Positions 5,432 through 30,156 are shown, counted from the stretch's first letter. The stretch is DNA of 52,313 nucleotides from a virus (IMGVR_UViG_3300009494_000005:1-52313), one strand, 5' to 3'. Translations and numbers: made by a program. Notes: generated by a model not told the origin, from the sequence alone.

Positions 5432-5452
5432 TTCCGGCAGGAGGTCGCGGTC

Positions 5453-6136: not shown

Positions 6137-6137
6137 C

Positions 6138-7690: not shown

Positions 7691-7698
7691 GAGGACCG

Positions 7699-8391: not shown

Positions 8392-8430
8392 CCTCCTCCT
8401 AAAACCACGGCCGAAGAAGAAAGGCCGACA

Positions 8431-10092: not shown

Positions 10093-10096
10093 CCAA

Positions 10097-16571: not shown

Positions 16572-17248
16572 GCAAGCGCGTCGTCGTCCTGACCGGCCAC
16601 TACGGGCCCGGGTCGGGGGCGTGGTGGCGCGATCCCGCCGGCACGCTAGACGAGTGGGAGCTCAACGCCCGGGTGTCGACCGCCCTCCTCTATCGGCTGT
16701 CGTCCCTCGGGTGGATTGCTATTCCCGGCACTACCGGGCAGAGAAACCCGATGGGCCTCCGCGCGAAACGCGCGTACGTCAACGCGATCGCGCCCGATCT
16801 CTGCGTAGAGGTCCACTTCAACATAGCAAGCAAGCGGGGAGCCCGAGGCGTAGAGTGGCCGGGGTGTTCCGGTTCACCGTTCCTCCGAGGGAACATCCCG
16901 ATTGAGGGGGCACGCGGCGTCAGCGTGCTCTACAACGAACGCAACGCATCTACCCTCGACCTAGCACACTGGATCGTCGCCGGAGTGTGGGCCGCGTCCG
17001 GGCTCCCTGCGGCCTACGGCGACGGACTAGATCCTCGTCCGGTCCAGCGGTGGAAGCCCGGATACATCTACCTCATCGCCAAGACCAACTGCCCGACCGT
17101 GCTCCTCGAGACGGCGTTTCTGTCTGACGCCGAAGATCGGGCCCGCATCCGCGAGGATTGGGCGTTCTTCGAGAAGGTCGGACGCGGCACCGGCGACGCG
17201 ATTCAAGCGTGGTGGGCGGCCGAGGTCAGGAGGAGGGAGGGATCGTGA
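16568..17248 (+). CDS. Endolysin, N-acetylmuramoyl-L-alanine amidase (Amidase_3)
   Basis: Zn ligands GH..G, E..LN, EVHFN, and catalytic PTVLLETAFL. Confidence 0.88.
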   Translation: MSKRVVVLTGHYGPGSGAWWRDPAGTLDEWELNARVSTALLYRLSSLGWIAIPGTTGQRNPMGLRAKRAYVNAIAPDLCVEVHFNIASKRGARGVEWPGCSGSPFLRGNIPIEGARGVSVLYNERNASTLDLAHWIVAGVWAASGLPAAYGDGLDPRPVQRWKPGYIYLIAKTNCPTVLLETAFLSDAEDRARIREDWAFFEKVGRGTGDAIQAWWAAEVRRREGS

Positions 17249-17982
17249 TGCTCTCCGGCATAATGATCGTCATGGAGCGCGCCCCGCTCGGGTTAGGGAT
17301 TCGGTTCGCAACTCAGAGCGGCGACGAGGGCCCGGGGTTCTCGAATCACACGGGCAACTGGTTCCTAGACGACGACGGCGTGGAGTTCCTGATTCACTCG
17401 ACAGGGAAGGGCACGCACGAGCTCCGCGATTGGAGGCGACACTACGACACCGACAAGCACTGGGGCGTCGTCGTCGTTCCGATCGGCTACGGGCAGGAGG
17501 ATCACTGGGCCGTCCTGACGAAGTCGCGCGAGTACGAGGGCATGAAGTACGACCGATGCGCGATCGCCAAGCACTTCCTCGACGGGATCGCCGGCAAGGT
17601 GATCCGGCGTCCGGTCTACTTCTTTCGCCGGTTCCGGCTCAAGTTCTGGAAGCGCGGCGACCGATACAACATCTGCTCATGGCTGTCGTGCTGTACGTGG
17701 CTCGAGATCGGGCACGGTGTGATGGGGCTCGTCCGCGACAAGGTCAAGGTGCGATGGTGGCCGCCCGGCCTCAAGCGCACCTACCGCAAGGAGCGAATCG
17801 GTTGCCGGTTCGTCGCACCTAACGATTGGGAGCGCGCCGTGTTCGTGCACGAGCCCGACCGCTACCGGGTGATCGACGAGATCGGCACCCGCCCCGACGA
17901 TCTCCCGCTCTCGTACGTCCACAAGATCGCGGCCGACCGCGCCGAATGCGCGGACTGGCGCGCCGGACTCCTCGCCTCCTGA
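17248..17982 (+). CDS. Permuted papain-like (YiiX/YebB NlpC/P60-type) peptidase
   Basis: His motif (SNHTG) before Cys motif (ICSWL), with G.KYD between them. Confidence 0.6.
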   Translation: MLSGIMIVMERAPLGLGIRFATQSGDEGPGFSNHTGNWFLDDDGVEFLIHSTGKGTHELRDWRRHYDTDKHWGVVVVPIGYGQEDHWAVLTKSREYEGMKYDRCAIAKHFLDGIAGKVIRRPVYFFRRFRLKFWKRGDRYNICSWLSCCTWLEIGHGVMGLVRDKVKVRWWPPGLKRTYRKERIGCRFVAPNDWERAVFVHEPDRYRVIDEIGTRPDDLPLSYVHKIAADRAECADWRAGLLAS

Positions 17983-17999
17983 CCCCGTGGAGATCGGCA

Positions 18000-18028
18000 C
18001 GGGGGCCCGTTCTGCCGGCGGGCCCCCG
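18000..18028 (+). terminator. Putative terminator hairpin ending the late operon
   Basis: CGGGGGCCCG-9 nt-CGGGCCCCCG followed by ATTTCGT (weak U tract). Confidence 0.5.
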
Positions 18029-18233
18029 ATTTCGTCCCTCACGGCCTCAACCGTCCCGAAGCCACTCCCGCCCGTTTCCGGGCTAAACTCTCCTCCAGCG
18101 CAACGCACGGGGCCCTGTTAGGGCTCTGAGGGCTCCGCTTGACGCCTCCGGGCTCGCCGGCACCCGCCCGGGAGCCCCGGGGGGCGTTGCGCGATGCAAG
18201 GACAGCGTTGCAACCCGCACCGTGGACCCGGCG

Positions 18234-18263
18234 TTGACACCGGGTAGCACCCCGCGGTAGACT
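18234..18263 (+). promoter_or_regulatory. Putative sigma70 promoter
   Basis: TTGACA-18 bp-TAGACT. Confidence 0.5.
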
Positions 18264-18301
18264 TGGGCAAGGTCGAAATGACCACCACGTAACACGGGAG
18301 T

Positions 18302-18317
18302 TGGAATCGGGCTTGCA
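18302..18317 (+). promoter_or_regulatory. Sigma54-type -24/-12 promoter P1
   Basis: TGGAATCGGGCTTGCA (GG-N10-GC), intergenic, upstream of 18370. Confidence 0.7.
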
Positions 18318-18369
18318 CCCTAGAGGAATAGAAGGAAGCAACGAAGGCCCCAACACGGAGGGACGGAAG

Positions 18370-18963
18370 ATGAGGCCAAGAATGGTAACCAGCGAAACCA
18401 GCACAGCCCCGATCACCGAGCACGAAGCACTGATCGACTACGCCGGCACCCGATACGTGATCGTGAGCATTAGCGACATCAAACACGACGAGCGACCCGA
18501 CCAATGGCAGATCTTCGCCATGAGGCCCGGAGGGCGCAAGGTGGTGATGGGGACGCTCTTCGGATTCGACGACGAAGGTTCCCCGAGGGTCTGGATCGGG
18601 CGCGACCTCGGGCTCCCCGTCAGAGCGCAGGACAAGTCCGCCGACGACGACAGCTGGACGAAGCCGAAGCGCGACGCGGCCGCCCGGGTGATGGAGCTCC
18701 GCGACAACGGATGGGTGATCGCGGGCGACGAGCGATTCAAGACCTTTCGGACGAGTCGGCACGGGGAACTGAACGAATACTGGAGCTACAACTACCGGGC
18801 CCCGAACGGGGAGAAGTTCAGCACAATAGCCGACACCTTGGAGGAGTGTCGAGCCCGCCGTGACAGTTGGCTAGCCGAGCACGACGCGGAAGTCTACTAC
18901 GACCTCAAGGCCGCCGAAGATGATGCCGGCGACAACAGCCTCAACGAAGGGAGCGGACGATGA
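18370..18963 (+). CDS. Early protein with C-terminal DUF3873-like region
   Basis: Y.YR..NGE.FST...TLEECR.RRD.WL motif recalled from DUF3873. RBS GGAGG. Confidence 0.55.
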   Translation: MRPRMVTSETSTAPITEHEALIDYAGTRYVIVSISDIKHDERPDQWQIFAMRPGGRKVVMGTLFGFDDEGSPRVWIGRDLGLPVRAQDKSADDDSWTKPKRDAAARVMELRDNGWVIAGDERFKTFRTSRHGELNEYWSYNYRAPNGEKFSTIADTLEECRARRDSWLAEHDAEVYYDLKAAEDDAGDNSLNEGSGR

Positions 18964-19343
18964 ACACGCACGAGATCCAGAAACTCAAGGTGGTCGGGAT
19001 CGGCCTAGGGGCCGCAATCAACGCCACCGGAGGCCCCGGCCTCCCCGCGAACGTGATCGTCAGAATCACACCCCGTCGCGGCGACGTCCTCGAGACGGAC
19101 GACTACGACGAGGCGATGGACCACCTCTGCGGGAACAAGCTCGACAGGATCAGCCTCCGGCCGGCCGAGGTCGTCGGAGCGGAGGACACGCGCGACGGCA
19201 CGGTGATCTGCCGGCCTTGCCTCCTCAACGAACCCGCGCGGATGAGCGACCGATTCCGGCACCTCTCGCCCCGGGAGCTCAAGGCGATGCTCGCCCACCT
19301 CGACAGCGAGAAGTGCTCGCGGTGCGGAAGGGGCCTCAAGTGA
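18960..19343 (+). CDS. Hypothetical protein with two CxxC motifs
   Basis: ATGA overlap with the previous gene, CRPC and CSRC. Confidence 0.65.
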   Translation: MNTHEIQKLKVVGIGLGAAINATGGPGLPANVIVRITPRRGDVLETDDYDEAMDHLCGNKLDRISLRPAEVVGAEDTRDGTVICRPCLLNEPARMSDRFRHLSPRELKAMLAHLDSEKCSRCGRGLK

Positions 19344-19747
19344 GCACCCCACTCCGCAAACGGCACGCGCGGACCCTACTCGTCGAGACAGTGGAGGAGT
19401 TCAGCAAAATGCTCAGCGAGTCGTGCCGCCGGCACGGGATCGTCCGGGGCACCGGCGACACCCGGCGATGGGACAAGGTCACGCAGGAAGTGTTGACGAC
19501 CATCGGCCTCCGGGTGCCCATGACGACCCGGCAACTGTGGGACTACCTCGCCCGGGTAGCGAAGCAGAACGGCGGGACGTTCGAGACTCGATTCGAGAGC
19601 AAGATCGGCCCGAGCTTGTGCGACACGACAGGCTGGAGCCGGTCGCGGCTACGCCTCCAGCTAGTCGAGTGGGAGCGGGCTGGCGCGCTCAAGTTCCGGT
19701 GCCTGACGGCCGGACGCGGCACGCTCATCACAGGCATAAACGAGTAG
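19340..19747 (+). CDS. Winged helix-turn-helix DNA-binding protein
   Basis: LCDTTGWSRSRLRLQLVEWERAGAL...GRGTLIT, GTGA overlap. Confidence 0.6.
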   Translation: MSTPLRKRHARTLLVETVEEFSKMLSESCRRHGIVRGTGDTRRWDKVTQEVLTTIGLRVPMTTRQLWDYLARVAKQNGGTFETRFESKIGPSLCDTTGWSRSRLRLQLVEWERAGALKFRCLTAGRGTLITGINE

Positions 19748-19756
19748 GAGGGCGAC

Positions 19757-20368
19757 GTGAGCTTTCACGACGGCGACATAGCCGCAATCGACGGCACGAT
19801 CGACGCTCAACACGCAGGGATCGTCAGGCGCGTGATAGGCGGCCGCGCGGAGGTCGCACTGACGACCGGGACCTCGACGCTGGCGCCGGCCTCCGACCTA
19901 GTCCTCCTCTGGACGTTCGACGCGGTGCGCGACACGCTAGGGGTCCGATTCATGACCTCCAAAGCCGAGCTCCAGTTCACCCGCGCGGCCGTGCTCGGAG
20001 GCGCGACGCTCACAGAGGCGCAAGCCGAGCAGATCCGGCGCGACGTCGAGGGCGCGATTGCCAAGGTCAAGCGGCAATTCCTCGACCACCGCGTGACCCT
20101 CCGGTGGCTGCACAACCTCGCGGAGCCCCGCCCGGTGATCGTCGTGATCCGGGAGCACCGAGGGAACGAGGACACCGCGACCGCACTGGAGATCCTACGG
20201 TGCCCGGCATCGGCCGCGGATTTCCTCCGGCGCGAGGCCCGAATCCCGGCCGTTGCAGGAAGCCCGCCACCCGTTGCACCTTGCGGCGGCCGGCACGCGG
20301 GCCGGGTAAGCTCCCGCCCGCAGGATCAGCGGACCCGTCAGAAGCCCACGAAACGGACCCGTAAATGA
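19757..20368 (+). CDS. Hypothetical protein
   Basis: GGAGG-GTG start in an operon context. Confidence 0.6.
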   Translation: MSFHDGDIAAIDGTIDAQHAGIVRRVIGGRAEVALTTGTSTLAPASDLVLLWTFDAVRDTLGVRFMTSKAELQFTRAAVLGGATLTEAQAEQIRRDVEGAIAKVKRQFLDHRVTLRWLHNLAEPRPVIVVIREHRGNEDTATALEILRCPASAADFLRREARIPAVAGSPPPVAPCGGRHAGRVSSRPQDQRTRQKPTKRTRK

Positions 20369-20387
20369 CCCTCCGTAACACGACTTC

Positions 20388-20403
20388 TGGAATCGCCCTT
20401 GCA
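20388..20403 (+). promoter_or_regulatory. Sigma54-type promoter P2
   Basis: TGGAATCGCCCTTGCA, intergenic. Confidence 0.7.
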
Positions 20404-20455
20404 CTACTAGGAGCCAGAACGAGGCAAGGGAGCAGGACCAACGGAGGAGGACGCG

Positions 20456-20830
20456 ATGAGCAAGACGAGCGCCCGAGAGCGACCGACCAAGGGCACGGCC
20501 GCCACCAGTTGCAAGCAGTGCAAGCACTACGAGGAGTTCAGCGCGGCCCGCACGAGCGGCACCTGCCACTACTGGATCGAGCAGACCGGCGAGGCCGGGT
20601 TGAGGTGCACGACCGCCGAGGAATGGACCTGCACGAAGTGGAACCCGCCGACCGAGGCCGGGAACCCGTGGCCGACAGTGATCGAGTTCGACGCGGCCGC
20701 CGAATACTACGGCGACGAGGGCGACGCGACGAGCGAAGCGACGGATGACTACTTCGCAGGATACGAGGTGCCGAGGGACGCGCGCACACTGATCACGCCC
20801 GAGGGCACGAGTCAGGCCGGCGACCACTAG
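20456..20830 (+). CDS. Cys-rich hypothetical protein
   Basis: GGAGGAGG RBS, CKQCKH...GTC...C..W pattern. Confidence 0.7.
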   Translation: MSKTSARERPTKGTAATSCKQCKHYEEFSAARTSGTCHYWIEQTGEAGLRCTTAEEWTCTKWNPPTEAGNPWPTVIEFDAAAEYYGDEGDATSEATDDYFAGYEVPRDARTLITPEGTSQAGDH

Positions 20831-20865
20831 CCGCCCGGCACAACCGAGGAAGGGAGGACGGAGAA

Positions 20866-21330
20866 ATGCAGAGGACAATCGGCAGTTGCAAACGCAAGGC
20901 GCGGTTTCTGAGCGAGGCACACGGGGTCGACCTCCAGATCAACGTCGAATACGGTCAGCCTTCCGTGCTCGCACGGAGCCCGGGAGGCAAGAGGTGGCGC
21001 ACCGTCGTGACCCGACGCTCGACCGGGGAGGTGTTCGACGCGCTCTGCCACATGGAGGAGGCGTGGGAGCTCGTCGACAAGAACGCGCCCGCGATCAAGC
21101 CGGCATTCGTGATCGTGGAGGTCAGCGGCGGCACCGCCGAGGTGACACACTTCAGCGCACACGCGGTGGTGACCGTGATCGACCACGACACCCCCATGGA
21201 CGCCGAGGGCTCGCCGCGAACCTGCACCACGGCGGCCGACCTTGTGATGCTCGAACTGCGGCACTCGGGCAACCGGCAGGTCCGAACCGAAACCGCGAGC
21301 CGCGAGGCCCTAGAGAGGACAGAAGAATGA
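20866..21330 (+). CDS. Hypothetical protein
   Basis: RBS and operon packing. Confidence 0.65.
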   Translation: MQRTIGSCKRKARFLSEAHGVDLQINVEYGQPSVLARSPGGKRWRTVVTRRSTGEVFDALCHMEEAWELVDKNAPAIKPAFVIVEVSGGTAEVTHFSAHAVVTVIDHDTPMDAEGSPRTCTTAADLVMLELRHSGNRQVRTETASREALERTEE

Positions 21331-21602
21331 GCACTAGACGCAAGCTCCCGACGGTCTACCGGGCCCGCCTCCCGCTCAAGGCGGGAGGCCCGGCCGCGAT
21401 GGACGCCCGACTACGGCGCGCGGTCGCGGAGTTCGAGCGGATGTTCGGCCGGCCGGTGGTCCGAATCCGCTACCCCGTGACCGGCGGGGTGCACTCGCGG
21501 ATCGCAACGGTCACATCGCAAAACGCAATCAAGCCGACGGAGGACGCCGACCTGCCGGCCGGGATGATCGTTCTGGAGGCTCCCCGGCGCACCCGTAAAT
21601 GA
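21327..21602 (+). CDS. Hypothetical protein
   Basis: ATGA overlap with the previous gene. Confidence 0.6.
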   Translation: MSTRRKLPTVYRARLPLKAGGPAAMDARLRRAVAEFERMFGRPVVRIRYPVTGGVHSRIATVTSQNAIKPTEDADLPAGMIVLEAPRRTRK

Positions 21603-21621
21603 CCCTCTGTAACACCCGTTT

Positions 21622-21637
21622 TGGAATCGGCCTTGCA
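21622..21637 (+). promoter_or_regulatory. Sigma54-type promoter P3
   Basis: TGGAATCGGCCTTGCA, intergenic. Confidence 0.7.
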
Positions 21638-21700
21638 CCCTAGAGGGGCAGAAGGACGGAAGGAACCGGCAAGGGAGCAGGACCGAACAGGGAGGAAGCA

Positions 21701-21961
21701 ATGAGCACACGCAAGACGATCAGCCTGAGCCTGACGCGCGACGAGACCGTGACGCTTGGAGCCCTCGCGCAGAACGCGCTGACGAAGGAAGCCGTGACGG
21801 CGGCCTTCCCGAACCCGGACGCCGACCGCGCCCGGCGAGACTACGCCGAGGTCGGGACGGCACTTCTCGACGCGAGCACGACCGCGCTCCGAGAGTTCAA
21901 CAAGGACGAGGGGGCCGCGCGCGGCCTCAGCATCGACGGCCTCAGACGCGCCGGGAAGTAG
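21701..21961 (+). CDS. Hypothetical protein
   Basis: GGGAGG RBS downstream of P3. Confidence 0.7.
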   Translation: MSTRKTISLSLTRDETVTLGALAQNALTKEAVTAAFPNPDADRARRDYAEVGTALLDASTTALREFNKDEGAARGLSIDGLRRAGK

Positions 21962-21971
21962 ACACACCACC

Positions 21972-22008
21972 GCCGGCGGGAGGAGCACAGGCGACCCCTC
22001 CCGCCGGC
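21972..22008 (+). other. Intergenic 12-bp perfect stem-loop
   Basis: GCCGGCGGGAGG...CCTCCCGCCGGC with no U tract. Confidence 0.6.
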
Positions 22009-22025
22009 ACCGACGAGGAGGACAG

Positions 22026-22289
22026 ATGCCAGCACGCAAGAAACCGCAGAAGCCGACAGTCCCGATCCGGGGCCTCACGAGGGGCCCGGCCTCCTGCATC
22101 AGGCCGCTGATCGTGATGGGCACGAACGAACGGCCGGGCGGCCGGGTCGAGTGGGACGCCCCCGCCGGCACGGTCAGGGGCTCGATTTTGGCAGTCTGGA
22201 GCGACGGCGTGACCCTCAGACGCATGGACACCGGCACCGAGCAGTTCCTCTACCGTGGCGACTACCGGGTGCTCAATCCGAAGGGTTGA
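22026..22289 (+). CDS. Hypothetical protein
   Basis: GAGGAGG RBS. Confidence 0.65.
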   Translation: MPARKKPQKPTVPIRGLTRGPASCIRPLIVMGTNERPGGRVEWDAPAGTVRGSILAVWSDGVTLRRMDTGTEQFLYRGDYRVLNPKG

Positions 22290-22314
22290 CACCCGGGGGC
22301 CCTCGCGGTATAAT
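22286..22314 (+). promoter_or_regulatory. Consensus sigma70 promoter
   Basis: Perfect TTGACA-17 bp-TATAAT in a GC-rich genome. Confidence 0.85.
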
Positions 22315-22342
22315 CGACACATCGCCCCGGAAAGGAGCACAG

Positions 22343-22561
22343 GTGAAGAAGGACAGAGACACAGGCCCGAAGTTCCCGACCTCGATCAGGGTCAAGTGCA
22401 CGGAGGAGTTCAAGGCCGGCCTCGGCCGGGTCGCGGACTCGTGGACCGGGCGCAAGGGGCAAGAGTTCGACGTGAGCAAGCTGATCCGCACGCTCGGGGA
22501 GCGCGCGATCGCACGCGAGGCGCGACTGACTGCGAAGCGGAGGCGACGTGACAAAGCGTAG
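22343..22561 (+). CDS. Ribbon-helix-helix (Arc/CopG-like) regulator
   Basis: AAGGAG-GTG, strand SIRVKC, helix EEFKAGLGRVA, helix VSKLIRTLGERAI. Confidence 0.6.
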   Translation: MKKDRDTGPKFPTSIRVKCTEEFKAGLGRVADSWTGRKGQEFDVSKLIRTLGERAIAREARLTAKRRRRDKA

Positions 22562-22982
22562 ACGCAAGCCGATCATCTGGCCCGACTACCGCACCTACCT
22601 GATCACGCGATTCACTCACACGAGGGACGCGGAGGAGTTCACGCGGAGGACCGGTCAACCGAGCAACATGATCTCGGACGGCCAGCTTCGCGGGTTCCTC
22701 ATCGACCATGCGAGGTGGGGAGTCGCGGCCCGGCCGGAACTGTGGCCGACCCTCCGACCCCACATCTACCTGCCGCGCTCCGAGGAGCCGTGGAACCTTG
22801 AGGTGGTGATCACCGACGGCCGGCTCATCGCGCAGACCATCGGAGATCCGCGCCACACCCGCGCTGGCATTCGGTCCTTCGCTGACCTCTGGGGCCCGCA
22901 CGGACCGCTTGAGATCCCCGACGAGGAGTGGCGACAAGACCCGGACTTTCAGAAGTGGCTTGACGAACGGAGGACGAAATAG
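22548..22982 (+). CDS. Hypothetical protein
   Basis: GGAGG-GTG overlapping the RHH gene. Confidence 0.65.
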   Translation: MTKRRRKPIIWPDYRTYLITRFTHTRDAEEFTRRTGQPSNMISDGQLRGFLIDHARWGVAARPELWPTLRPHIYLPRSEEPWNLEVVITDGRLIAQTIGDPRHTRAGIRSFADLWGPHGPLEIPDEEWRQDPDFQKWLDERRTK

Positions 22983-22988
22983 CATGAT
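22960..22988 (+). promoter_or_regulatory. Possible sigma70 promoter
   Basis: TTGACG-17 bp-CATGAT just upstream of a long hairpin. Confidence 0.35.
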
Positions 22989-23002
22989 CACCCCGATGGT
23001 TT

Positions 23003-23074
23003 CCCCCATCAACGGAGCCGGAGCCGGAGCACGCGGGTTGCCCCGCGCCTGACTCCGGTTCTCGTTGACGGGGG
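23003..23074 (+). ncRNA. Long imperfect intergenic hairpin
   Basis: CCCCCATCAACG/CGTTGACGGGGG, GAGCCGGAG/CTCCGGTTC and CGCGGG/CCCGCG pairings. Confidence 0.45.
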
Positions 23075-23102
23075 CCGTCGGACAACAGAACGGGGGAAGC
23101 CA

Positions 23103-23441
23103 TTGAAGGAGCACGAGAAGTGCCCACCGACCGAGACCCACGACACATCCCGCGCCAGCACCGCCGACACGGGCACAAGAACAGACGCCCCAAGCACCGA
23201 TGCGCCCGCCGTGGTGAGCATCGGCACTCGCGCCGTCGTCGAGATCGGGCCCGAGGAAGCGACCCCGACATGGGAGGAACGGGTCGCGGCCGACCCGACG
23301 CTCCTGACGCCCGATTGCGAGTGGGATCGGACGGACGACTACGCAATGACCGGTCAGCGCGCCCACGACAATGACATGGAGGAGCTCAGACAGGCCAACA
23401 CAGAGGCCCGCATCAAGCGCAACGGCGTGAGGTTCGGCTAG
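23103..23441 (+). CDS. Hypothetical protein (start uncertain)
   Basis: Fills the gap before 23455 on the coding strand. Confidence 0.45.
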   Translation: MKEHEKCPPTETHDTSRASTADTGTRTDAPSTDAPAVVSIGTRAVVEIGPEEATPTWEERVAADPTLLTPDCEWDRTDDYAMTGQRAHDNDMEELRQANTEARIKRNGVRFG

Positions 23442-23454
23442 GAGGCCCGACACC

Positions 23455-24930
23455 ATGAGCGACAAAGCCCCGGAAACGGAGAAGGCACCGGCGGTGCACA
23501 AGGATGGCGACAGCCCGTTCGACGCCTGTGACAACCGCGACATGGACTACCTCGACGCACAGTGTCGAGGGCTCGACCTGATTCAACCGCTCGCCCATTT
23601 TTGGATCGAGGACGAGAGCGGCGAGGCGACCTACGCGCTCACCAAGTCGGGCGTAGAGGAAGCCGGTAGACTCGGAGGAGGCGTCGACTGCCCGCTCGCG
23701 GGGCTCAGAGTCGAAGCCGATGGCACCCTCTGGAACGCGGAGCAGGAAGGTCAGAGCATGACGACCAAGCTCCGGCGGGTCGGGTCGGCCTCCGCGAGCA
23801 TCCTCAACTACCACGGCAAGCCCGACAGGTTCGGTCGGCGCAAGGCGGTCAGCCTCGCACAGCGGAACGCGATCAACGCGCTCCTGACGCCCGAGCAGAA
23901 AGCCAAGATGATCACGCACGCAATCGACATCGGGAGCGTTGAGCAGATCACCGAGCCGTGGAAGAAGGAGGACAAGAAGAAGCGCGGACGTCCGGCCGCC
24001 GGCAAGGCCCCGGGAGCACCGCAGAAGCGCGAGCAACCGAAGGGACGTGCACCGACGAAGGACGAAGCACTCGACTACTTCAACAGCGTGATGGGCGAGG
24101 TGATCGCGGCCGTCGCCATGAGGACCGACCGCGACCCGAAGGAAGTCAAGCGCGACATGATCCGCGCGACGGTCCGACGCGGCACGCGGCAGAGGTTCCA
24201 CAACGCCGAAGAAATGCCGCTCCAAGAACTGGTCGCCCTGATCCGCAAGGTAGAGGGCGCAACCGCCGAGGCCGTGAGGTGGTTGAACACCGACGAGTGG
24301 GAGGACGTGCTCGAGACTGGAGGGAGTGGCGCGGAACTGACAAAGCCGACGCCCGCTCCCGTGGTGGGGGGGGGAAACACTGGGGCTACGCCTCCCCCGC
24401 CCGAACCTCCTGACGGCGAAGATCCGGGGCCGACCGAGGAGCTCCCTGCGGGCGACGCGGAGAAAGATGCACCTGATTCGGGCTCCTCCTCCGGGGGCAG
24501 CGCCTCCGGTGCGGGGGGAGAGCTCCCCGACGGTGCAACTTGCGCGGAGTCTAACGCGGACGCGGACGAGCCGGTCCCGGACGAACCGGAGAACCTCGAC
24601 GCCGCACGCGCGAACGCGGCCGAGATCGTGGGACGGATTCTCAAGGCGGTGCCGGTAGAGGGCATCGGAGAGACTCGGGCGAAGCGACAGAGGGCAATCG
24701 ACGCGGTCCGAGCCAACATGACCAAGGCCGTGGTCAGGACCGGGACCGGAGGGAGGACGGAGGACGCGAGCACGCTGACCGTGGCCGAGCTCCTCAACCT
24801 GACCGCCCTCATCGCCCGGGACGAGCGCGCGATCGTGAAGTGGCTGACGAACGGCCGATACTTGAGCTCGGAGATCGCACCGCCGGACACGCAGTGCGAC
24901 CTTCTCAAAAGCTCTACGAACCCTAATTAA
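23455..24930 (+). CDS. Putative Rad52/Sak-like ssDNA annealing protein with duplicated C-terminal helical domain
   Basis: LTKSG... and KAVSLAQRNAI resemble the Rad52-family kA.t.A.krA helix. An internal repeat flanks a Pro/acidic linker. Confidence 0.45.
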   Translation: MSDKAPETEKAPAVHKDGDSPFDACDNRDMDYLDAQCRGLDLIQPLAHFWIEDESGEATYALTKSGVEEAGRLGGGVDCPLAGLRVEADGTLWNAEQEGQSMTTKLRRVGSASASILNYHGKPDRFGRRKAVSLAQRNAINALLTPEQKAKMITHAIDIGSVEQITEPWKKEDKKKRGRPAAGKAPGAPQKREQPKGRAPTKDEALDYFNSVMGEVIAAVAMRTDRDPKEVKRDMIRATVRRGTRQRFHNAEEMPLQELVALIRKVEGATAEAVRWLNTDEWEDVLETGGSGAELTKPTPAPVVGGGNTGATPPPPEPPDGEDPGPTEELPAGDAEKDAPDSGSSSGGSASGAGGELPDGATCAESNADADEPVPDEPENLDAARANAAEIVGRILKAVPVEGIGETRAKRQRAIDAVRANMTKAVVRTGTGGRTEDASTLTVAELLNLTALIARDERAIVKWLTNGRYLSSEIAPPDTQCDLLKSSTNPN

Positions 24931-25132
24931 GTACAAAACTAGTAGTAGTAGTAGGGACGGTGGAAATGTGGACGGGAGGGTGCAAAGCGTTGAGGCTAAA
25001 AGGGGAGCCGGAGGCGCGGGGCGGTGGAGAACCGGTTGACAACTGGGGACCGGTGTGGACCGAAAAGGGGCGGTCCGCACTTACACACCGCCCTGCACCG
25101 CCCGTTCACAGACTTATCAACAGGATGTGCAC
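24924..25132. other. oriC-like replication origin (AT tract, DnaA-trios, DnaA boxes, IHF-like site)
   Basis: TAATTAAGTACAAAAC-(TAG)5-GGAC-GGTGGAAAT/TGTGGAC, CAAAGCGTTGA, and phased boxes ending in TTATCAACA. Confidence 0.75.
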
Positions 25133-25717
25133 ATGACCGGGTTCGAGTTCATAATCATAGGCGGCCCGCACGGAGGAGAGATCGAGAACCCGACGTGCTA
25201 CGCGCGGACGACGCAACGGAGCAAGCACATCAGGTGGACCCGGTCGCGGATCTCGGAGGCGACCGGCAAGGTGCTCCCGCCACGGCTCACACAGTGGGCC
25301 CGTTATCAAGACTACGTCGAGCACGTCAGGCGGGCCTTCGGGGTTTACGAACGAGACCAGCTGATCGAGGAGATCTGGCCGATCCTCCACGCCAAGGAGG
25401 GCAAGGTTGTGGTGGACGTCGTCGCGCAGTTCCGGGGCCGCCAGCACTCCGACGCCGACCACGTCGCCAGCACGGTTGCCGACGCACTGTTCCCGAGGCC
25501 GCCGACTAAGCGACCGCGTCGGAGGAGCGGGGCAACGTGGGGATACGACACACTCCGACATTCGCCGGGCGACGGCCTCGTGCTTGCCCGGATGCTCGAT
25601 TTCATCGACGGCGCCGATTCGGCTTTCGTCGTGGTCAAGATACACGGGCCCTACCCGCGCGACTGGTGGGGTGCGGGCCCGATTCCGAACCTGACACGAC
25701 TACGGGGGGGCGCGTGA
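25133..25717 (+). CDS. RusA-like Holliday junction resolvase (degenerate motifs)
   Basis: VVVDV..QF...DADHV..TVADAL...GD..V and a terminal VVVKI strand. Confidence 0.55.
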   Translation: MTGFEFIIIGGPHGGEIENPTCYARTTQRSKHIRWTRSRISEATGKVLPPRLTQWARYQDYVEHVRRAFGVYERDQLIEEIWPILHAKEGKVVVDVVAQFRGRQHSDADHVASTVADALFPRPPTKRPRRRSGATWGYDTLRHSPGDGLVLARMLDFIDGADSAFVVVKIHGPYPRDWWGAGPIPNLTRLRGGA

Positions 25718-26640
25718 CACACCTCGTTAGCAGGCTGATCCGCTGGGCGACCGGTCGGGCGCGAATAGAGGGCGCGACCCGGTCAGACCTCGTCGACCTT
25801 ACATCAGCCGAACGCCGCGCGTCCTCCGGGGTAGACCACCTAGCACGGGCAATCAGAGGTGCGATCTACGACGGGCTCTGCGAAGGGCTCACCGTCAAGC
25901 AGATCTCCGACCAGATAGAGGTACTCTGGTCGACGGTGATCGCAACCGACGAGATCCGGCGGCTCCTCCGCGCCGAGCTCAAGCGCATGACGAGGGTTCC
26001 AGTGCGGGTGCTGAGCCCTCGCGACCACGGCAAGATGATCGAGCTCACCATCCTCGACGACGTCGCGCCGATCCCCGCGCACCTCCTCAAGCCCGAGCAT
26101 ACCGAGGCCGGCGACCGCGAAAGCAACCGCATCGAGTGTGGAGTCTACGCGCGGATCGAGGCTCAACGGCGGGCCCTCGCGCGAGACTTCCCGGGCTTCG
26201 CTGAGCGGTTCCTTGCCCATAGTCCAGTGGCGGAGGCGTCGGAGGGGGTAAACTCTCCTCCAGCGTCGCCAACGGAGCCCACGGAGCAGGTTTGGGGGCC
26301 TTCCCCGCTCCGACGGGCCTTGTCATGGTGGAGGCTCCTGACAGGAGGACGAGTGAAGGAGAACTGGAGAGTGGTGGTCGACGTCCCGATTGCGGACGTG
26401 CAGGAGGAGGACAAGGACGCGGCGATGCTCGACATCTGCCGAGCGTGGGCTTCGGACATTGGCGTCGAGGTGCCGGAGGGCACGAGCATCAAGATTCTCT
26501 GCAATGATGAGGCAGGGAACATCGTGGCCTACCCGCTCAGGGCGGCCGTCGAGGAGCCCGCCCCCGCGTCAGGCGACGAGATCACCGACCCGGACGGCAA
26601 GGCTCCGGTGCTGGAGGACGACGACCCCGCGCCTGAGTAG
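25714..26640 (+). CDS. Hypothetical protein with C-terminal GDEITDPxGxAP motif
   Basis: GTGA overlap, motif shared with 3429-3812. Confidence 0.65.
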   Translation: MTHLVSRLIRWATGRARIEGATRSDLVDLTSAERRASSGVDHLARAIRGAIYDGLCEGLTVKQISDQIEVLWSTVIATDEIRRLLRAELKRMTRVPVRVLSPRDHGKMIELTILDDVAPIPAHLLKPEHTEAGDRESNRIECGVYARIEAQRRALARDFPGFAERFLAHSPVAEASEGVNSPPASPTEPTEQVWGPSPLRRALSWWRLLTGGRVKENWRVVVDVPIADVQEEDKDAAMLDICRAWASDIGVEVPEGTSIKILCNDEAGNIVAYPLRAAVEEPAPASGDEITDPDGKAPVLEDDDPAPE

Positions 26641-26732
26641 ACAATGGCCGGCGGCTCCGGCACCTGACAAGCAGGGAACGCGCCCGGCCGAATGGCCGTA
26701 GCACCGGGGCCGCCACCGAGGAGGGGGAAACC

Positions 26733-26930
26733 GTGACAGAGAATCAGGCGATCAAGCACGCCATGGCCGCACACCGAGCAGGGCACGACGCTTGCGCGCA
26801 GACCGTAGGCGGCACGACGTCGGGCCGTTGGGCGGTTCACCTAGACCACGGCCGTCGGATCATGGAGGACCACAGCGAGTGCGTGACTGAGATCCGGCGG
26901 CTCCAAGCGATCAACAGGAGGAAGCGTTGA
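26733..26930 (+). CDS. Small hypothetical protein
   Basis: GAGGAGG RBS. Confidence 0.55.
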   Translation: MTENQAIKHAMAAHRAGHDACAQTVGGTTSGRWAVHLDHGRRIMEDHSECVTEIRRLQAINRRKR

Positions 26931-27526
26931 CCTCGATCTTCGACAAGGTGCTCCGGTACGACCGAGCGAGCTTCCCGTCGGCGGTCCTCGTCACCGGTCC
27001 ACAGCGGGCCGGCACGCGGATCGCAGCCAAGATGGTCGCGGCCGACATCGGGCACACCTACTACGACGAGACCACCATCGGCATCAACAAGCTAGACCTC
27101 GCGCTCACCGTTATGCGACGGGGCGCGGTCGTGCTCCACGCGCCCGGGCTCTGCCACCTGTCACACCTCCTAACGGACGCGCGACTCGCCCGGGTGCCGA
27201 TCAATGTGATCATCGTCCGGCGCGCTCTGCCCGACATCATCAAGTCATGCGAGCGGATCAACTGGAACGACCGCGACGAGCGCGCGGCCTATCGGGGCCG
27301 GCCGGAGTTTGGCCCCTACATGACCGACGGCGCGCACGTCGCGCAGTGGAAATACGAAGTCCTCGACTGCTACCAACGCCCTTACGCCGGCCGGCTCGTT
27401 GGGACGTTCTACTTCCAGATTGCCTATGAGGACTTGCGCGCGCACCCGTTGTGGTTGCCGAAGGAGGACCGCACTGATTGGGAGTGGGACCGCACCGCTC
27501 CCGGCAAAGGAGGCAGGAACGCATGA
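26927..27526 (+). CDS. Sulfotransferase-like P-loop protein
   Basis: 5'-PSB motif TGPQRAGT, 3'-PB motif IVRR..PDII.S, and IAYEDL. Confidence 0.65.
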   Translation: MTSIFDKVLRYDRASFPSAVLVTGPQRAGTRIAAKMVAADIGHTYYDETTIGINKLDLALTVMRRGAVVLHAPGLCHLSHLLTDARLARVPINVIIVRRALPDIIKSCERINWNDRDERAAYRGRPEFGPYMTDGAHVAQWKYEVLDCYQRPYAGRLVGTFYFQIAYEDLRAHPLWLPKEDRTDWEWDRTAPGKGGRNA

Positions 27527-27921
27527 GCAGACACACAATCAGAGCGGCCGTGCAGAGCCTTGAGGGGTTCGACACGGAGGACATGGCGGCCGTGATCTCC
27601 GCACTGGAGGCCGCCAAGGTTGCCGACCTCGCGATAGTCGAGGAGGCAGGGACCATGCTCGCGGTCGACGACCGGACCGTTCACCTAGTGGCATGGCCCG
27701 CCGGGGTTCTGATTCCCGAGATCGGGGAGAACCTCACCCCGACACTGGAGGTGTCGGAGTGCGAGAACTGCCGCCGGCAGAGCATCCTGATCGGGCAACA
27801 GCACGACGCGATTCGGCAACTGACCCACCTCGTCAGGAGCCTGACCCGGATCGTCGAGGTCTACACCAACGCGACGGTCTACACGACCATGAACCCGGAG
27901 GGAGGCGACAGTGGCCAATGA
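27523..27921 (+). CDS. Hypothetical protein
   Basis: GGAGG and ATGA overlap, CENC plus coiled coil. Confidence 0.6.
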   Translation: MSRHTIRAAVQSLEGFDTEDMAAVISALEAAKVADLAIVEEAGTMLAVDDRTVHLVAWPAGVLIPEIGENLTPTLEVSECENCRRQSILIGQQHDAIRQLTHLVRSLTRIVEVYTNATVYTTMNPEGGDSGQ

Positions 27922-28567
27922 TCCGCGGATAGTGCCGGTCGGAATCCCGGTCGACAGTCTCGCGGTCGCGGCATACATGAGCTACGCCGTGACGAAGCTC
28001 AAGAACGACGGCGATCTCGAGGAGGAAGGGCGGCCCGAGGATCAGGTGCCGCCGTTCAAGGATCTCCCGCCGGCCGAGCAAGCCGGTTGGCTCGCGGCGG
28101 TTCAGGGCGTGCTCTCCAACGGAGGCATGACATTCGCCACGCGGCCGCCGGGCCAACTAGCGATCGACCTCGGCGTAATGACCGTGGAGGAGATCGCAGA
28201 GACCTACCCGATCCGGCAAGCGGAGGACGGCAACGTGCGGCTCCCGTCGACACCCGACGCGACGACTTGGCAGATGTTCGGCCGGATCACCGCGCGGTTC
28301 CTCGGGCACGCCGGGCTCATCGTGCCGGCCGCCATGACACAGGGCATCCTCAAGGAGACAATCGGGCCGACCGGCGACGAGACCGAGGGCGCACCGATCA
28401 TCGGCGCGGTCGCGGTTGTCGAGATCCCCTACGAGTGCTTCCGCGCGCTGACCGATGCAGGGTTCGAGGACGGCGAAACCGTGAGCCTCGGAATCCTTAA
28501 CCCGATGAGCGCGAAGGACAAGCCCAACGACGCGATGCTCGAACCTACGGAGGGAGGAGCACATTGA
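27911..28567 (+). CDS. Hypothetical protein
   Basis: GGAGG-GTG in an operon context. Confidence 0.65.
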   Translation: MANDPRIVPVGIPVDSLAVAAYMSYAVTKLKNDGDLEEEGRPEDQVPPFKDLPPAEQAGWLAAVQGVLSNGGMTFATRPPGQLAIDLGVMTVEEIAETYPIRQAEDGNVRLPSTPDATTWQMFGRITARFLGHAGLIVPAAMTQGILKETIGPTGDETEGAPIIGAVAVVEIPYECFRALTDAGFEDGETVSLGILNPMSAKDKPNDAMLEPTEGGAH

Positions 28568-28998
28568 TGGCACACGACGAGGAGGTGGTCACAATCACGG
28601 AGCTCGCGAGCACGCCCGAGCTCATCAAGATCCGTGACGTGTTCGCGGCCGGCCGGCCGGAGGAACTTGGAGCCCTCCGTAACGACATCCTCGCCGCCGT
28701 GCTGACGGAGCTCGTCGGCTACCGGACGATGCAGGACGCCGAGGAGCAAGCCGCCCGGGCTCTCGCGGAAGGGCACGAGGTTGACACGCTCACCCTGACG
28801 GCCGCCCGCTTCAAGCTCGCCCTCTCCAAGCTCCAACAGGAGCTTGATCGGAGGATCGGGGTCAGCACCTCCCAGTACGGGCAGAACATCATCGAGTGCC
28901 TCGACCTTCTCACCGCCCTCCTGTTGCAACACGCAACGGAGCCGGGCGATTTGCCCGGCCGAGGCGACATGGCCGGGCGGGACCGTTCGGGGGGGTAA
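28567..28998 (+). CDS. Hypothetical helical protein
   Basis: GGAGGAG RBS and TGATG overlap. Confidence 0.6.
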   Translation: MAHDEEVVTITELASTPELIKIRDVFAAGRPEELGALRNDILAAVLTELVGYRTMQDAEEQAARALAEGHEVDTLTLTAARFKLALSKLQQELDRRIGVSTSQYGQNIIECLDLLTALLLQHATEPGDLPGRGDMAGRDRSGG

Positions 28999-29048
28999 AT
29001 CCGGTTGCCCCCGCGTTGCCCCCGTGGTAGGGTTGTAATAGACGGAGT

Positions 29049-29064
29049 TGGAATCAGACTTGCA
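29049..29064 (+). promoter_or_regulatory. Sigma54-type promoter P4
   Basis: TGGAATCAGACTTGCA, 27 nt before ATG 29092. Confidence 0.7.
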
Positions 29065-29091
29065 CTACAGAGGGGCAGAAGGGAGGACAAG

Positions 29092-29238
29092 ATGAGAACA
29101 CTGACCCTGACACTAGCAATCGCCGGCCCGATGGCACTGACCCTGAGCACGGCGATGATCCTGATTCTAGCCGCCGTCGCGCTGACCGCCGGCCTGACAG
29201 TGGACGGACTGAGCGATCTGAGGAGGGCGAAATGCTGA
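29092..29238 (+). CDS. Small membrane peptide (48 aa)
   Basis: GGGAGG-ATG, hydrophobic core. Confidence 0.6.
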   Translation: MRTLTLTLAIAGPMALTLSTAMILILAAVALTAGLTVDGLSDLRRAKC

Positions 29239-29354
29239 CGACCCTGACCGACTACCTGAGCGCGACTAGCCCGATGATCTGGACTTGCACCGGCGCGGTG
29301 ATAGTGGTAGTGGTGATTTACCGAGTGCTGATCAAGCCGATAATCGACGCCTAG
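29232..29354 (+). CDS. Small membrane peptide (40 aa, not in ORF track)
   Basis: GGAGG-ATG, MLTTLTDYLSATSPMIWTCTGAVIVVVVIYRVLIKPIIDA. Confidence 0.55.
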   Translation: MLTTLTDYLSATSPMIWTCTGAVIVVVVIYRVLIKPIIDA

Positions 29355-29362
29355 GAGGAGGA

Positions 29363-29953
29363 GTGAGCGCGACCCTGCACGAACTGGCCGTGGAGCACGG
29401 GACCGACAAGGCCCGTCACGGCTACTGCCCGTTCTACGAGGAGGTGTTCGGCCCCTACCGCGACAAGATCGCGCGGGTGCTGGAGATCGGCGTCAAGGAC
29501 GGGGCATCGCTCAGGGTTTGGCTCGACTACTTCCCGAACGCGCACATCTTCGGGCTCGACAACGGCACGACCGCCGACCCCGACCGTTGGCCGCGCGGCC
29601 CGCGCGTCACCATCATCGCCGGCGATCAAGGCACGGTGCCCGACCTGTTCCGGGCCGGCATGATCGCGGGGCTCTGCGACATCATCCTCGACGACGGCGG
29701 GCACACGATGTGGCAACAGCAACTGAGCTTCGCCGCGCTCTGGCCGCACGTTTTCCCGGGCGGCTTCTACGTGATCGAAGATACGCACACGAGCCGCATC
29801 CTTGACGGGTTCGGCCGGAACGATTCCCCTGAGACCACCGAGGCGATGCTTGGCCGGCTCCAGTTCGAGCTCGGGTTCGAGATCGAGAGCATGGCCGGCT
29901 CCGAGCGTGATGCAACGTCGGTGATTCATAAGCCACCAAGGAGGCTGGCATGA
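29363..29953 (+). CDS. Class I SAM-dependent sugar O-methyltransferase (MycE-like)
   Basis: GTDK..HGY..FY, VLEIGV..GASL..W..YFP, GDQ, DIILDDGGH, GGFYVIED. Confidence 0.85.
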   Translation: MSATLHELAVEHGTDKARHGYCPFYEEVFGPYRDKIARVLEIGVKDGASLRVWLDYFPNAHIFGLDNGTTADPDRWPRGPRVTIIAGDQGTVPDLFRAGMIAGLCDIILDDGGHTMWQQQLSFAALWPHVFPGGFYVIEDTHTSRILDGFGRNDSPETTEAMLGRLQFELGFEIESMAGSERDATSVIHKPPRRLA

Positions 29954-30156
29954 TGAGCCGATGGTTGGCCCGAGAGCACATGAGGCAGATCCCCAACGGT
30001 TTCGAGGACACGACATGGCCCGATCTTGGCCGAGCGTTCTACCACTTCGCCGCCGCGATCTTCTGGCTCGGAGTGCTCGTCCTCCACCAAGGAGCATGGC
30101 ACATCTACTACCGGACGCTCGACGGCCTCCGGGGAGAGGGAGCGCGCAAGTGGTGA
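29950..30156 (+). CDS. Small membrane protein
   Basis: ATGA overlap, one hydrophobic helix. Confidence 0.55.
   Translation: MMSRWLAREHMRQIPNGFEDTTWPDLGRAFYHFAAAIFWLGVLVLHQGAWHIYYRTLDGLRGEGARKW

What the first reader, a model, noticed from the sequence alone, without database searches (positions are those of the whole stretch)
18186..29064. Four sigma54 (RpoN)-type promoters in the phage early/middle region
Seen: TGGAATC-N4-TTGCA occurs four times (18302, 20388, 21622, 29049). Each is intergenic, on the + strand, 27-63 nt before an RBS-led gene, and has exact GG-N10-GC spacing. Established: this matches the sigma54 -24/-12 consensus TGGCAC-N5-TTGC, and sigma54 holoenzyme needs an AAA+ enhancer-binding protein. 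I see no GAFTGA/AAA+ activator in the phage. Inference: phage gene expression is gated by a host activator and so by a host physiological signal. I do not know of this as a common phage strategy.
Basis: partly seen in the sequence, partly recalled or inferred. Interest (0 to 1): 0.85.

Follow-up and report, generated by a model that had tools for sequence, protein, structure and literature searches.

The report
Sigma-54-type promoters in an uncultured phage
An uncultured phage and its relatives place a promoter sequence of the rare bacterial sigma-54 type in front of several early gene cassettes and the block leading into the packaging genes, yet encode no activator, so they probably depend on a host sigma-54 system that few phages are known to use.

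Summary
TGGAATC-N4-TTGCA occurs exactly four times (18302, 20388, 21622, 29049), all on the + strand and intergenic, 27-63 nt before start codons, with 0 expected by chance.

The sigma-54 reading gains independent support. A related IMG/VR phage (G001, portal 76% identical) carries 7 sites, in matching genomic regions, that read TGGCAC(G/A)-N4-(T/A)TGCA. Three of them are the perfect textbook consensus TGGCACG-N4-TTGCA. A metagenome contig (L135) carries one more site.

Across 11 distinct sites, TGG, A(-22) and TGCAC are invariant, and the differences fall at positions I recall as weakly conserved. Sigma-70 readings fail at 0 of 12 sites. There is no RNA-structure signal.

None of the three phage records encodes a sigma-54, a sigma-70 region 2 or an EBP AAA+ domain.

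Not shown: the host (bacterial, unidentified), the transcript starts, rpoN dependence and the activator. An extra conserved GTAACAC-N6 box is unexplained, and no shared enhancer was found.

Precedent is rare but exists: Pseudomonas phage YuA. This scan has also noted sigma-54-type promoter sets in many other uncultured phages.

Verdict: a new member of a known, rarely documented kind.

The parts
18289..18334 (+). Site 1. GTAACAC (18289-18295), N6, -24/-12 core TGGAATCgggcTTGCAC (18302-18318), and a conserved start region ending in GAAGG. The transcript start is inferred near 18328.
   Evidence: The start position is inferred from the usual 12-nt distance from the GC (C at 18316). It was not measured.
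20375..20420 (+). Site 2. GTAACAC, N6, TGGAATCgcccTTGCAC (20388-20404). The transcript start is inferred near 20414.
21609..21654 (+). Site 3. GTAACAC, N6, TGGAATCggccTTGCAC (21622-21638). The transcript start is inferred near 21648. It shares a cassette of about 100 bp with site 2 and with the L135 site.
   Evidence: In one search, contigs of relatives align to 21592-21638 while their flanks do not.
29035..29081 (+). Site 4. Degenerate GTAATAG, N7, TGGAATCagacTTGCAC (29049-29065). The transcript start is inferred near 29075. It heads the gene block that runs through the modification genes to terminase and portal.
   Evidence: The orthologous G001 site (g1r 11424) precedes the same small membrane-protein gene.
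18234..18263 (+). Sigma-70-type promoter TTGACA-N18-TAGACT, 38 bp upstream of site 1.
   Evidence: 10 of 12 matches. G001 has TTGACA-N18-TGnTATGAT in the matching control region.
22286..22314 (+). Perfect sigma-70 consensus promoter TTGACA-N17-TATAAT, ahead of the conserved middle operon. That operon holds a small regulator-like gene at 22343-22551, a Rad52-like protein and a RusA-like protein.
   Evidence: 12 of 12. The orthologous 12-of-12 promoter is at g1r 3637.
29005..29033 (+). Sigma-70-like extended -10 promoter TTGCCC-N17-(TGg)TAGGGT, which ends 15 bp before site 4.
   Evidence: Read. It is conserved in G001 as TTGCAC-N17-(TGG)TATCCT. It fell below the threshold of the scan, so this is my own reading.
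18370..18963 (+). First gene after site 1: 197 aa with a DUF3873 domain and a weak winged-helix match.
   Evidence: PF12989, E 4.7e-13; PF14090, E 0.0024, below the cut-off. The domain is conserved in G001.
20456..20830 (+). First gene after site 2: 124 aa, no family found.
21701..21961 (+). First gene after site 3: 86 aa, no family above threshold.
29092..29238 (+). First gene after site 4: small hydrophobic protein of 48 aa, followed by a methyltransferase gene (29285-29953).
18000..18028 (+). Perfect 10-bp GC hairpin followed by ATTTCGT, just after the lysis genes. It is a likely end of the long rightward transcription unit, ahead of the control region.
   Evidence: inverted repeat I3, 100% complementary. 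The terminator function is inferred.

Best explanation
The four motifs are sigma-54 (RpoN) class -24/-12 promoters of an uncultured tailed phage with a genome of about 41.6 kb and a bacterial host. The host's sigma-54 RNA polymerase is inferred to bind TGG(-26..-24) and TGC(-14..-12) and to sit as a closed complex. It would start transcription about 12 nt downstream (near 18328, 20414, 21648 and 29075) only when an ATP-hydrolysing enhancer-binding protein remodels it.

The phage encodes no such ATPase, so the activator is inferred to come from the host. Three sites drive small, fast-evolving early cassettes. The fourth heads the block that runs into the modification, packaging and structural genes. 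Strong sigma-70 promoters at 18234 and 22286, and a weaker one at 29005, supply a second, activator-independent route.

Shown here: the motif, its conservation, its canonical form in a relative, and the absence of phage sigma or EBP genes. Inferred: sigma-54 binding, the start sites, dependence on a host activator, and any link to host physiology.
For: (1) There are 4 exact copies against 0 expected. Each lies in an intergenic gap, on the gene strand, 27-63 nt before an RBS-led start codon.

(2) The relative G001 has 7 matches to TGGCAC-N5-WTGCA, all on the gene strand, with shuffle means of 0.00-0.01 (the single L130 match is the same place as the first L131 match). Three read TGGCACG-N4-TTGCA, which is 12 of 12 consensus positions. 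The metagenome contig L135 has one TGGAATC-N4-TTGCAC site.

(3) Site 4 and G001 site 11424 are orthologous. Both precede the same small membrane-protein gene in a syntenic region.

(4) In 11 distinct sites, T, G, G, A(-22) and T, G, C, A, C(-14..-10) are invariant. All variation falls at -23, -21, -20, -15 and in the N4 spacer. From memory of published sigma-54 logos, those are the weakly conserved positions.

(5) Sigma-70 readings fail. In 0 of 12 sites is there a TANNNT hexamer 15-19 nt after TTGCAC. The TGGNAN hexamer has G at position 2 in 12 of 12 sites, and no conserved -35 lies upstream.

(6) There is no Rfam match, and fold z-scores are 0.27, -1.01, -0.71 and 0.03.

(7) 0 of 3 phage records hold PF00158, PF04552 or PF04542, and the control genomes rang in each search. 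The only conserved Walker A motif is in the terminase.

(8) The host is bacterial. The lysin is an Amidase_3, and canonical sigma-70 promoters are conserved in position in G000 and G001.

(9) There is a precedent. The GenBank record of phage YuA annotates three active '-24/-12 consensus' promoters, and PMC5053324 states that YuA development depends on host sigma-54.
Against: The host is unknown, so the presence of rpoN and of a suitable activator cannot be checked. No RNA run holds the stretch, so no start site is known.

No enhancer is shared by the sites. No 7-mer occurs in more of the 10 upstream regions than in random sets: the observed maximum is 5 of 10, and 256 of 300 random sets reach 5 or more. 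The GTTGC-N5-GCAAC boxes are absent from G001.

The window's own sites match only 9 of 12 consensus positions.

All promoters within one genome share one -24 variant: TGGAATC in G000 and L135, TGGCACG in G001. Such concerted change is also what a phage-specific reader would produce.

Two further conserved elements belong to no sigma-54 consensus I know: GTAACAC at about -39..-33, and C-R-GAAG at about +2..+7.

The more distant relative G002 has at most one such site.

The PF00940 (T7-type RNA polymerase) search rang in no control genome, so it is uninformative.
Confidence: 0.72

Rival explanations
1. The block is a promoter class read by an unrecognised phage-encoded specificity factor, such as a novel sigma-like or RNA-polymerase-retargeting protein. 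Its likeness to sigma-54 sites would then be convergent, or would reflect reuse of part of the sigma-54 contact surface.
For: The -24 box has switched in concert between genomes, TGGAATC against TGGCACG, even at the orthologous site 4. This is how T7-like phage promoters co-vary with their own polymerases (recalled). Conservation extends from about -39 to +7, beyond the sigma-54 core. Most early proteins have no family: PHROGs found none for 9 of 10 proteins and for 7 of 10, and Pfam was mostly blank.
Against: Three G001 sites match all 12 specified positions of the sigma-54 consensus with exact spacing. That is very unlikely for an unrelated factor. There is no sigma-70 region 2 or sigma-54 DNA-binding domain in six-frame searches of three records. 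The largest unassigned early protein is Rad52-like and not a polymerase or sigma (weak, best E 0.016). The two largest other ORFs are a tape-measure protein and an NHL-repeat tail protein.
Confidence: 0.12
2. The sites are operators or docking sites and do not fire as promoters. They would bind a phage or host DNA-binding protein, or sigma-54 holoenzyme used as a roadblock or sponge, and so modulate read-through from upstream sigma-70 promoters.
For: Sites 1 and 4 lie just downstream of sigma-70-type promoters. TGGCAC and TTGCAC are direct repeats 11 bp apart. No activator or enhancer was found. Other notes of this scan describe sigma-54 box arrays without genes in other phages (unchecked).
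Against: Sites 2 and 3, and G001 sites 43123, 305, 2286 and 2765, have no sigma-70-like promoter just upstream in the scan. Some follow stop codons or GC hairpins directly. Each gene start has a single site, always in the sense orientation, at a narrow distance from the RBS.
Confidence: 0.08
3. The repeats are mainly cassette boundaries, that is, recombination or module-exchange sequences, or a leader RNA element. Their promoter likeness would be secondary.
For: Sites 2 and 3 and the L135 site share about 100 bp, including the last codons of the upstream gene and a GGCAAGGGAGCAGGACC leader. The genes between the sites are not orthologous between G000 and G001, while the flanking modules are.
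Against: Between genomes only the promoter-like positions stay fixed, and the leaders differ. There is no fold signal or Rfam family. Cassette shuffling is compatible with the repeats also being promoters.
Confidence: 0.05

Closest known systems
Sigma-54 (-24/-12) promoters of Pseudomonas aeruginosa phage YuA (Ceyssens et al. 2008, J Bacteriol 190:1429). The paper is not held. I saw it only through passages in PMC5053324 and PMC10914365 and the GenBank annotation of AM749441.
   Same: It is a tailed phage without its own RNA polymerase that mixes sigma-70 promoters with promoters annotated as '-24/-12 consensus'. Those promoters were active in a promoter trap. Its development is said to depend on host sigma-54, and one sigma-54-like promoter was confirmed by 5'-end sequencing.
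   Different: There is no detectable relationship to YuA. The best cultured-phage portal hits are 24-29% identical and are to other phages, and megablast finds nothing. YuA's three annotated fragments lie in the structural region and match the consensus poorly in my scan: best 8 of 12 in one fragment, nothing at 7 or more in the other two. Here there are 4-7 near-identical sites per genome. They head early cassettes and the pre-packaging block, reach 12 of 12 in G001, and carry an extra GTAACAC box. Supplementary Table S3 of PMC10914365, which lists the YuA promoter sequences, could not be opened.
Bacterial enhancer-dependent sigma-54 promoters. The consensus YTGGCACG-N4-TTGCW is recalled from Barrios et al. 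1999; examples such as glnAp2 and pspA are recalled.
   Same: GG-N10-GC spacing, the TGG and TTGC blocks, the sense orientation upstream of genes, and the absence of a -35/-10 pair.
   Different: These sites are in a phage. There is no recognisable upstream activator site or IHF-type spacer. They carry a proximal GTAACAC box and a conserved start region. In two cases a sigma-70 promoter lies 15-38 bp upstream.
Sigma-54-type promoter sets noted by this scan in other uncultured phages (e1-3506070, e1-6174201, e1-5736303 and others). These are AI notes and I did not check them.
   Same: Several near-consensus sigma-54 boxes in front of phage gene groups, with no activator gene in the phage.
   Different: They come from different phage lineages, some large phages and some of Bacteroidota. 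This is a 41.6-kb, 64% GC phage with Shine-Dalgarno-led genes and its own GTAACAC-bearing cassette.

Membership tests
Sigma-54 (RpoN) -24/-12 promoter class | GG and GC doublets exactly 10 bp apart | tested here: met
   12 of 12 sites: 4 in the window, 7 in G001 and 1 in L135.
Sigma-54 (RpoN) -24/-12 promoter class | Match to the extended consensus TGGCACG-N4-TTGCW (consensus recalled from the literature) | tested here: met
   In G001, 3 sites match 12 of 12, 3 match 11 of 12 and 1 matches 10 of 12. The window's 4 sites and the L135 site match 9 of 12. The invariant positions are TGG, A(-22) and TGCA.
Sigma-54 (RpoN) -24/-12 promoter class | Sense orientation in an intergenic gap upstream of a gene | tested here: met
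   All sites lie on the gene strand, 27-65 nt before an RBS-led start codon.
Sigma-54 (RpoN) -24/-12 promoter class | The cell that reads it encodes sigma-54 | not testable with these tools
   The host was not identified. There are no prophage relatives in 185,579 species genomes. The composite motif gives only 3 single hits there. The only names on homologues are a MAG label, 'Methanophagales archaeon', which conflicts with the bacterial features. The phage itself encodes no sigma-54.
Sigma-54 (RpoN) -24/-12 promoter class | An AAA+ enhancer-binding protein and its upstream binding sites | tested here: inconclusive
   No PF00158 in 3 phage records, and no conserved Walker A outside the terminase. 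GTTGC-N5-GCAAC-like boxes lie 95-128 nt upstream of the four window sites. They are absent from G001, and no 7-mer is shared above background. A host activator cannot be examined.
Sigma-54 (RpoN) -24/-12 promoter class | Transcript start about 12 nt after the GC, and rpoN-dependent activity | not testable with these tools
   No RNA run is listed for the stretch. The laid runs are contigs only.
Sigma-70 -35/-10 promoter (TTGCAC read as -35, or TGGAAT read as -10) | A TANNNT hexamer 16-18 nt after the -35, with A at position 2 of the -10 | tested here: not met
   In 0 of 12 sites is there a TANNNT 15-19 nt after TTGCAC/ATGCAC. Position 2 of TGGNAN is G in 12 of 12. No conserved -35-like hexamer lies upstream.
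Promoters of phage single-subunit (T7-like) RNA polymerases | A phage-encoded RNA polymerase | tested here: inconclusive
   PF00940 was not found in 3 records, but the search rang in no control genome. There is no unassigned ORF of polymerase size: the 810-aa ORF is a tape-measure-type protein and the 1103-aa ORF is an NHL-repeat tail protein.
Structured cis-regulatory RNA | A stable or known fold | tested here: not met
   0 Rfam matches at E up to 1 in 17900-29400. Fold z-scores run from -1.01 to 0.27.

The most novel reading that the evidence does not exclude
The phage does not wait for a host enhancer-binding protein. One of its unassigned early proteins would bind the conserved GTAACAC box 6 bp upstream of the -24 element and switch on sigma-54 polymerase without an AAA+ ATPase, or recruit and redirect it. 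The phage would then own a private sigma-54 regulon. The genome-wide switch of the -24 box (TGGAATC against TGGCACG) would reflect co-evolution with that factor or with different host sigma-54 proteins.
Probability: 0.1. Interest if true: 0.9.

Novelty: new member of a known kind. Interest (0 to 1): 0.6.

Why it matters
Sigma-54 transcription is silent until an ATP-driven activator fires. A phage that puts early cassettes and the entry to its packaging and structural genes behind such promoters ties its development to a host signalling pathway, or to an unknown trick that bypasses it.

Published evidence that phages use sigma-54 rests, in the library I could search, on one phage group (YuA). 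Here the promoter family is clean: up to 12 of 12 consensus positions and 4-7 copies per genome. It is conserved across at least three contigs and has no activator gene. That gives a well-defined system for asking which activator a phage borrows, and why it pairs sigma-70 and sigma-54 promoters at the same genes. It also gives a host-range clue, since the host must carry rpoN.

Tried and rejected
Finding more relatives:
- Megablast of 17000-30000 and tblastn of the 85-1716 protein against 50,697 phage records found nothing.
- Portal and terminase reach only 22-29% identity to cultured phages.
- A scan of IMG/VR with TTGGAATC-N4-TTGCAC gave 118+ single, chance-like hits and was useless.
- The composite pattern found only G001 in IMG/VR and 3 single hits in species genomes, which look like chance.
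- Further IMG/VR and metagenome scans with early-protein alignments returned only G001 and one 4.6-kb contig.

Identifying the host:
- A portal-alignment scan of 185,579 species genomes found no relative.
- The amidase search returned only members of this phage clade.
- The Atlas look-up gave generic amidase clusters.
- The tool does not draw relatives for a virus record.

Enhancers: the CGATGCA, CGCAAC and GTTGCAAC boxes are local to some control regions and are not shared by all sites.

Expression: no RNA holder is listed. Laying contigs of 3 runs from one study showed only that relatives share the promoter block.

Phage activator candidates: the 491-aa early protein folds at moderate confidence (mean pLDDT 68.9). 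Its N-terminal domain resembles Rad52, Mgm101 and Sak annealing proteins only weakly (best E 0.016). The 144-aa protein upstream of site 4 has only a sub-threshold HTH_67 hit.

Literature: eight searches found no phage other than YuA reported to use sigma-54 promoters. A 2026 preprint proposes a phage protein with an EBP-like fold but no GAFTGA (passages). My recollection that phiC31 early promoters were once likened to sigma-54 promoters found no support, and I dropped it.

Full report
WHAT IS THERE

The window is a single IMG/VR virus record. It has 64% G+C and no tRNA genes. By codon-position G+C, essentially all its genes lie on the + strand.

TGGAATC-N4-TTGCA occurs four times, at 18302, 20388, 21622 and 29049. 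All copies are on the + strand, and none is expected in shuffles. Each copy sits in a gap between + strand genes. Each is followed by a purine-rich leader, a GGAGG-type ribosome-binding site and a start codon 52, 52, 63 and 27 nt after the motif.

Alignment shows that the motif is the core of a longer block: GTAACAC-N6-TGGAATC-N4-TTGCAC-N12-GAAG. Site 4 has the degenerate GTAATAG-N7.

GENOME CONTEXT

A Mu-type portal fused to a Mu F domain lies at 38247-40871. A tape-measure-type protein lies at 10097-12529 and an NHL-repeat tail protein at 12987-16298. An Amidase_3 lysin lies at 16505-17248.

Positions 4-10783 repeat 41659-52313 at 76-83% identity. The contig is therefore one genome of about 41.65 kb plus a wrapped-around piece of a diverged strain. 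This agrees with the 40.8-43.3 kb contigs of its relatives.

On the circular map the order is as follows:
- lysis genes, then a perfect GC hairpin (18000-18028);
- a control region with a sigma-70 promoter (18234-18263), then site 1;
- small unassigned genes, with sites 2 and 3;
- a perfect sigma-70 consensus promoter (22286-22314);
- a conserved operon with a Rad52-like protein (weak match) and a RusA-like protein;
- site 4, then a small membrane protein, a methyltransferase, glycosyltransferase-like and radical-SAM-like genes;
- terminase, portal and the structural genes.

THE TEST ON RELATIVES

Portal homologues (9 proteins including the window's own, 43-100% identical) led to two IMG/VR relatives: G001 (portal 76% identical) and G002 (43%).

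In G001 the pattern TGGCAC-N5-WTGCA has 7 distinct matches, all on the gene strand, against shuffle means of 0.00-0.01. The one at the contig start may repeat the contig end, so there are 6 or 7 distinct sites.

Three of them read TGGCACG-N4-TTGCA, which is the textbook sigma-54 consensus at 12 of 12 specified positions. Three match 11 of 12 and one matches 10 of 12. Each has GTAACA(C/G)-N6 upstream and an RBS-led gene downstream.

G001 is syntenic with the window from the middle operon through the structural and lysis genes. Its site at 11424 precedes the same small membrane-protein gene as window site 4.

A 4.6-kb metagenome contig (L135) has one TGGAATC-N4-TTGCAC site with the same cassette as window site 3. 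Contigs from three runs of one study align to 21592-21638 while their flanks do not.

G002 has at most one candidate, TGGCACG-N4-TTGCC, in its long control gap.

Over 11 distinct sites (the G001 contig-start copy was dropped), TGG, A at -22 and TGCAC are invariant. The differences fall at -23, -21, -20, -15 and in the N4 spacer. From my memory of published sigma-54 logos, this is how conservation is distributed in real sigma-54 promoters.

ALTERNATIVES TESTED

- Reading TTGCAC as a sigma-70 -35, or TGGAAT as a -10, fails at 12 of 12 sites.
- No Rfam family matches, and the leaders fold no better than shuffles.
- Six-frame searches of G000, G001 and G002 find no enhancer-binding AAA+ domain, no sigma-54 DNA-binding domain and no sigma-70 region 2, while control genomes rang.
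- The T7-type polymerase search was uninformative because no control rang. No unassigned ORF is of polymerase size.
- The only conserved Walker A motif is in the terminase. A second regex hit in G001 lies in the Rad52-like protein and is not conserved in the window.

WHAT REMAINS OPEN

- The host. The lysin and the canonical sigma-70 promoters, conserved in position in G000 and G001, point to a bacterium. The one organism name on homologues, a 'Methanophagales archaeon' MAG, is therefore probably a binning error. No prophage relative exists in 185,579 species genomes.
- The enhancer. GTTGC-N5-GCAAC-like boxes lie 95-128 nt upstream of the four window sites (32 matches against 21.3 expected overall). 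G001 lacks them, and no 7-mer is shared by the upstream regions above background.
- The GTAACAC box. All 6 forward copies in G001, and 3 of 4 in the window, lie at these promoters. The conserved C-R-GAAG at the inferred start is also not part of any sigma-54 consensus I know.
- The concerted -24 variant. All promoters of one genome share one variant. This could reflect different host sigma-54 preferences, copy-and-paste spread of cassettes, or a phage-specific reader.
- The sigma-70 promoters next to sites 1 and 4. They lie 38 and 15 bp upstream, so these genes have two routes of expression. At site 4 the two polymerases would compete for overlapping DNA.

MECHANISM PROPOSED

Host sigma-54 holoenzyme binds the -24/-12 core as a closed complex. 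An AAA+ activator, which the phage does not encode, remodels it, and transcription starts about 12 nt past the GC. The sigma-70 promoters give activator-independent early expression. The sigma-54 promoters add a conditional layer on the accessory cassettes and on entry to the late block.

Only the sequence features are shown. Binding, start sites and activator dependence are inferred from established sigma-54 biology.

COMPARISON WITH WHAT IS KNOWN

PMC5053324 (passage) says that phage use of sigma-54 is 'rare' but 'not unprecedented', and cites YuA. PMC10914365 (passages) confirms one sigma-54-like YuA promoter by 5'-end sequencing. The YuA GenBank record annotates three active '-24/-12 consensus' promoters, which match the consensus poorly in my scan. 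The primary paper is not held, and supplements were closed.

Eight literature searches found no other phage case. Within this scan, sigma-54-type promoter sets have been noted in many other uncultured phages (166 notes in at least 152 genomes, unchecked).

I therefore file this as a new member of a known but rarely documented kind. The unexplained extras are the GTAACAC box, the concerted -24 variants and the paired sigma-70 promoters.

SCORES

Confidence that these are sigma-54-class promoters is 0.72. Interest is 0.6.

Noticed in passing
window 4-10783 and 41659-52313: The two ends of the contig are diverged copies of the same structural-gene region, 76-83% identical. The record looks like one genome of about 41.65 kb with a wrapped-around piece from a second strain. 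Relatives sit on contigs of 40.8-43.3 kb. CheckV's '50% complete' is probably misleading.
   Followed up: partly
window 22286-22314; G001 reverse strand 3637: A perfect sigma-70 consensus promoter (TTGACA-N17-TATAAT, 12 of 12) in a 64% GC genome. It is conserved at the orthologous place in G001, ahead of a small regulator-like gene (22343-22551).
   Followed up: partly
proteins P0006 and P0023 (relatives of the portal and the lysin): NCBI names the 40.8-kb contig of a relative as a 'Methanophagales archaeon' MAG. The clade has a peptidoglycan amidase and sigma-70 and sigma-54 promoters, so this is probably a phage contig binned into an archaeal MAG.
   Followed up: no
G002 reverse strand about 18480-18640: The long non-coding control gap of the distant relative holds two TTATCCAC repeats and one TTATCAAC, which look like DnaA boxes (recalled consensus), next to a single TGGCACG-N4-TTGCC box. 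It may be an origin.
   Followed up: no
G001 reverse strand 41931-41952 and 43013-43027; window 18186-18221: Short repeated boxes (CGATGCA two or three times; GTTGCGCGATGCAAG and GTTGCAACCCGCACC) lie upstream of the leftmost promoters. They may be operators of the control region. They are not shared by all sigma-54-type sites.
   Followed up: partly
window 23455-24930: [quoted passage not shown] A RusA-like gene follows.
   Followed up: partly
whole window: No replication helicase, primase or polymerase family, and no Walker A motif outside the terminase, was seen in any real ORF. The phage seems to rely on host replication.
   Followed up: partly
window 20362-20368 and 21596-21602: The repeated cassette of sites 2 and 3 begins inside the upstream genes, so both genes end with the same four codons (R-T-R-K-stop).
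   Followed up: no
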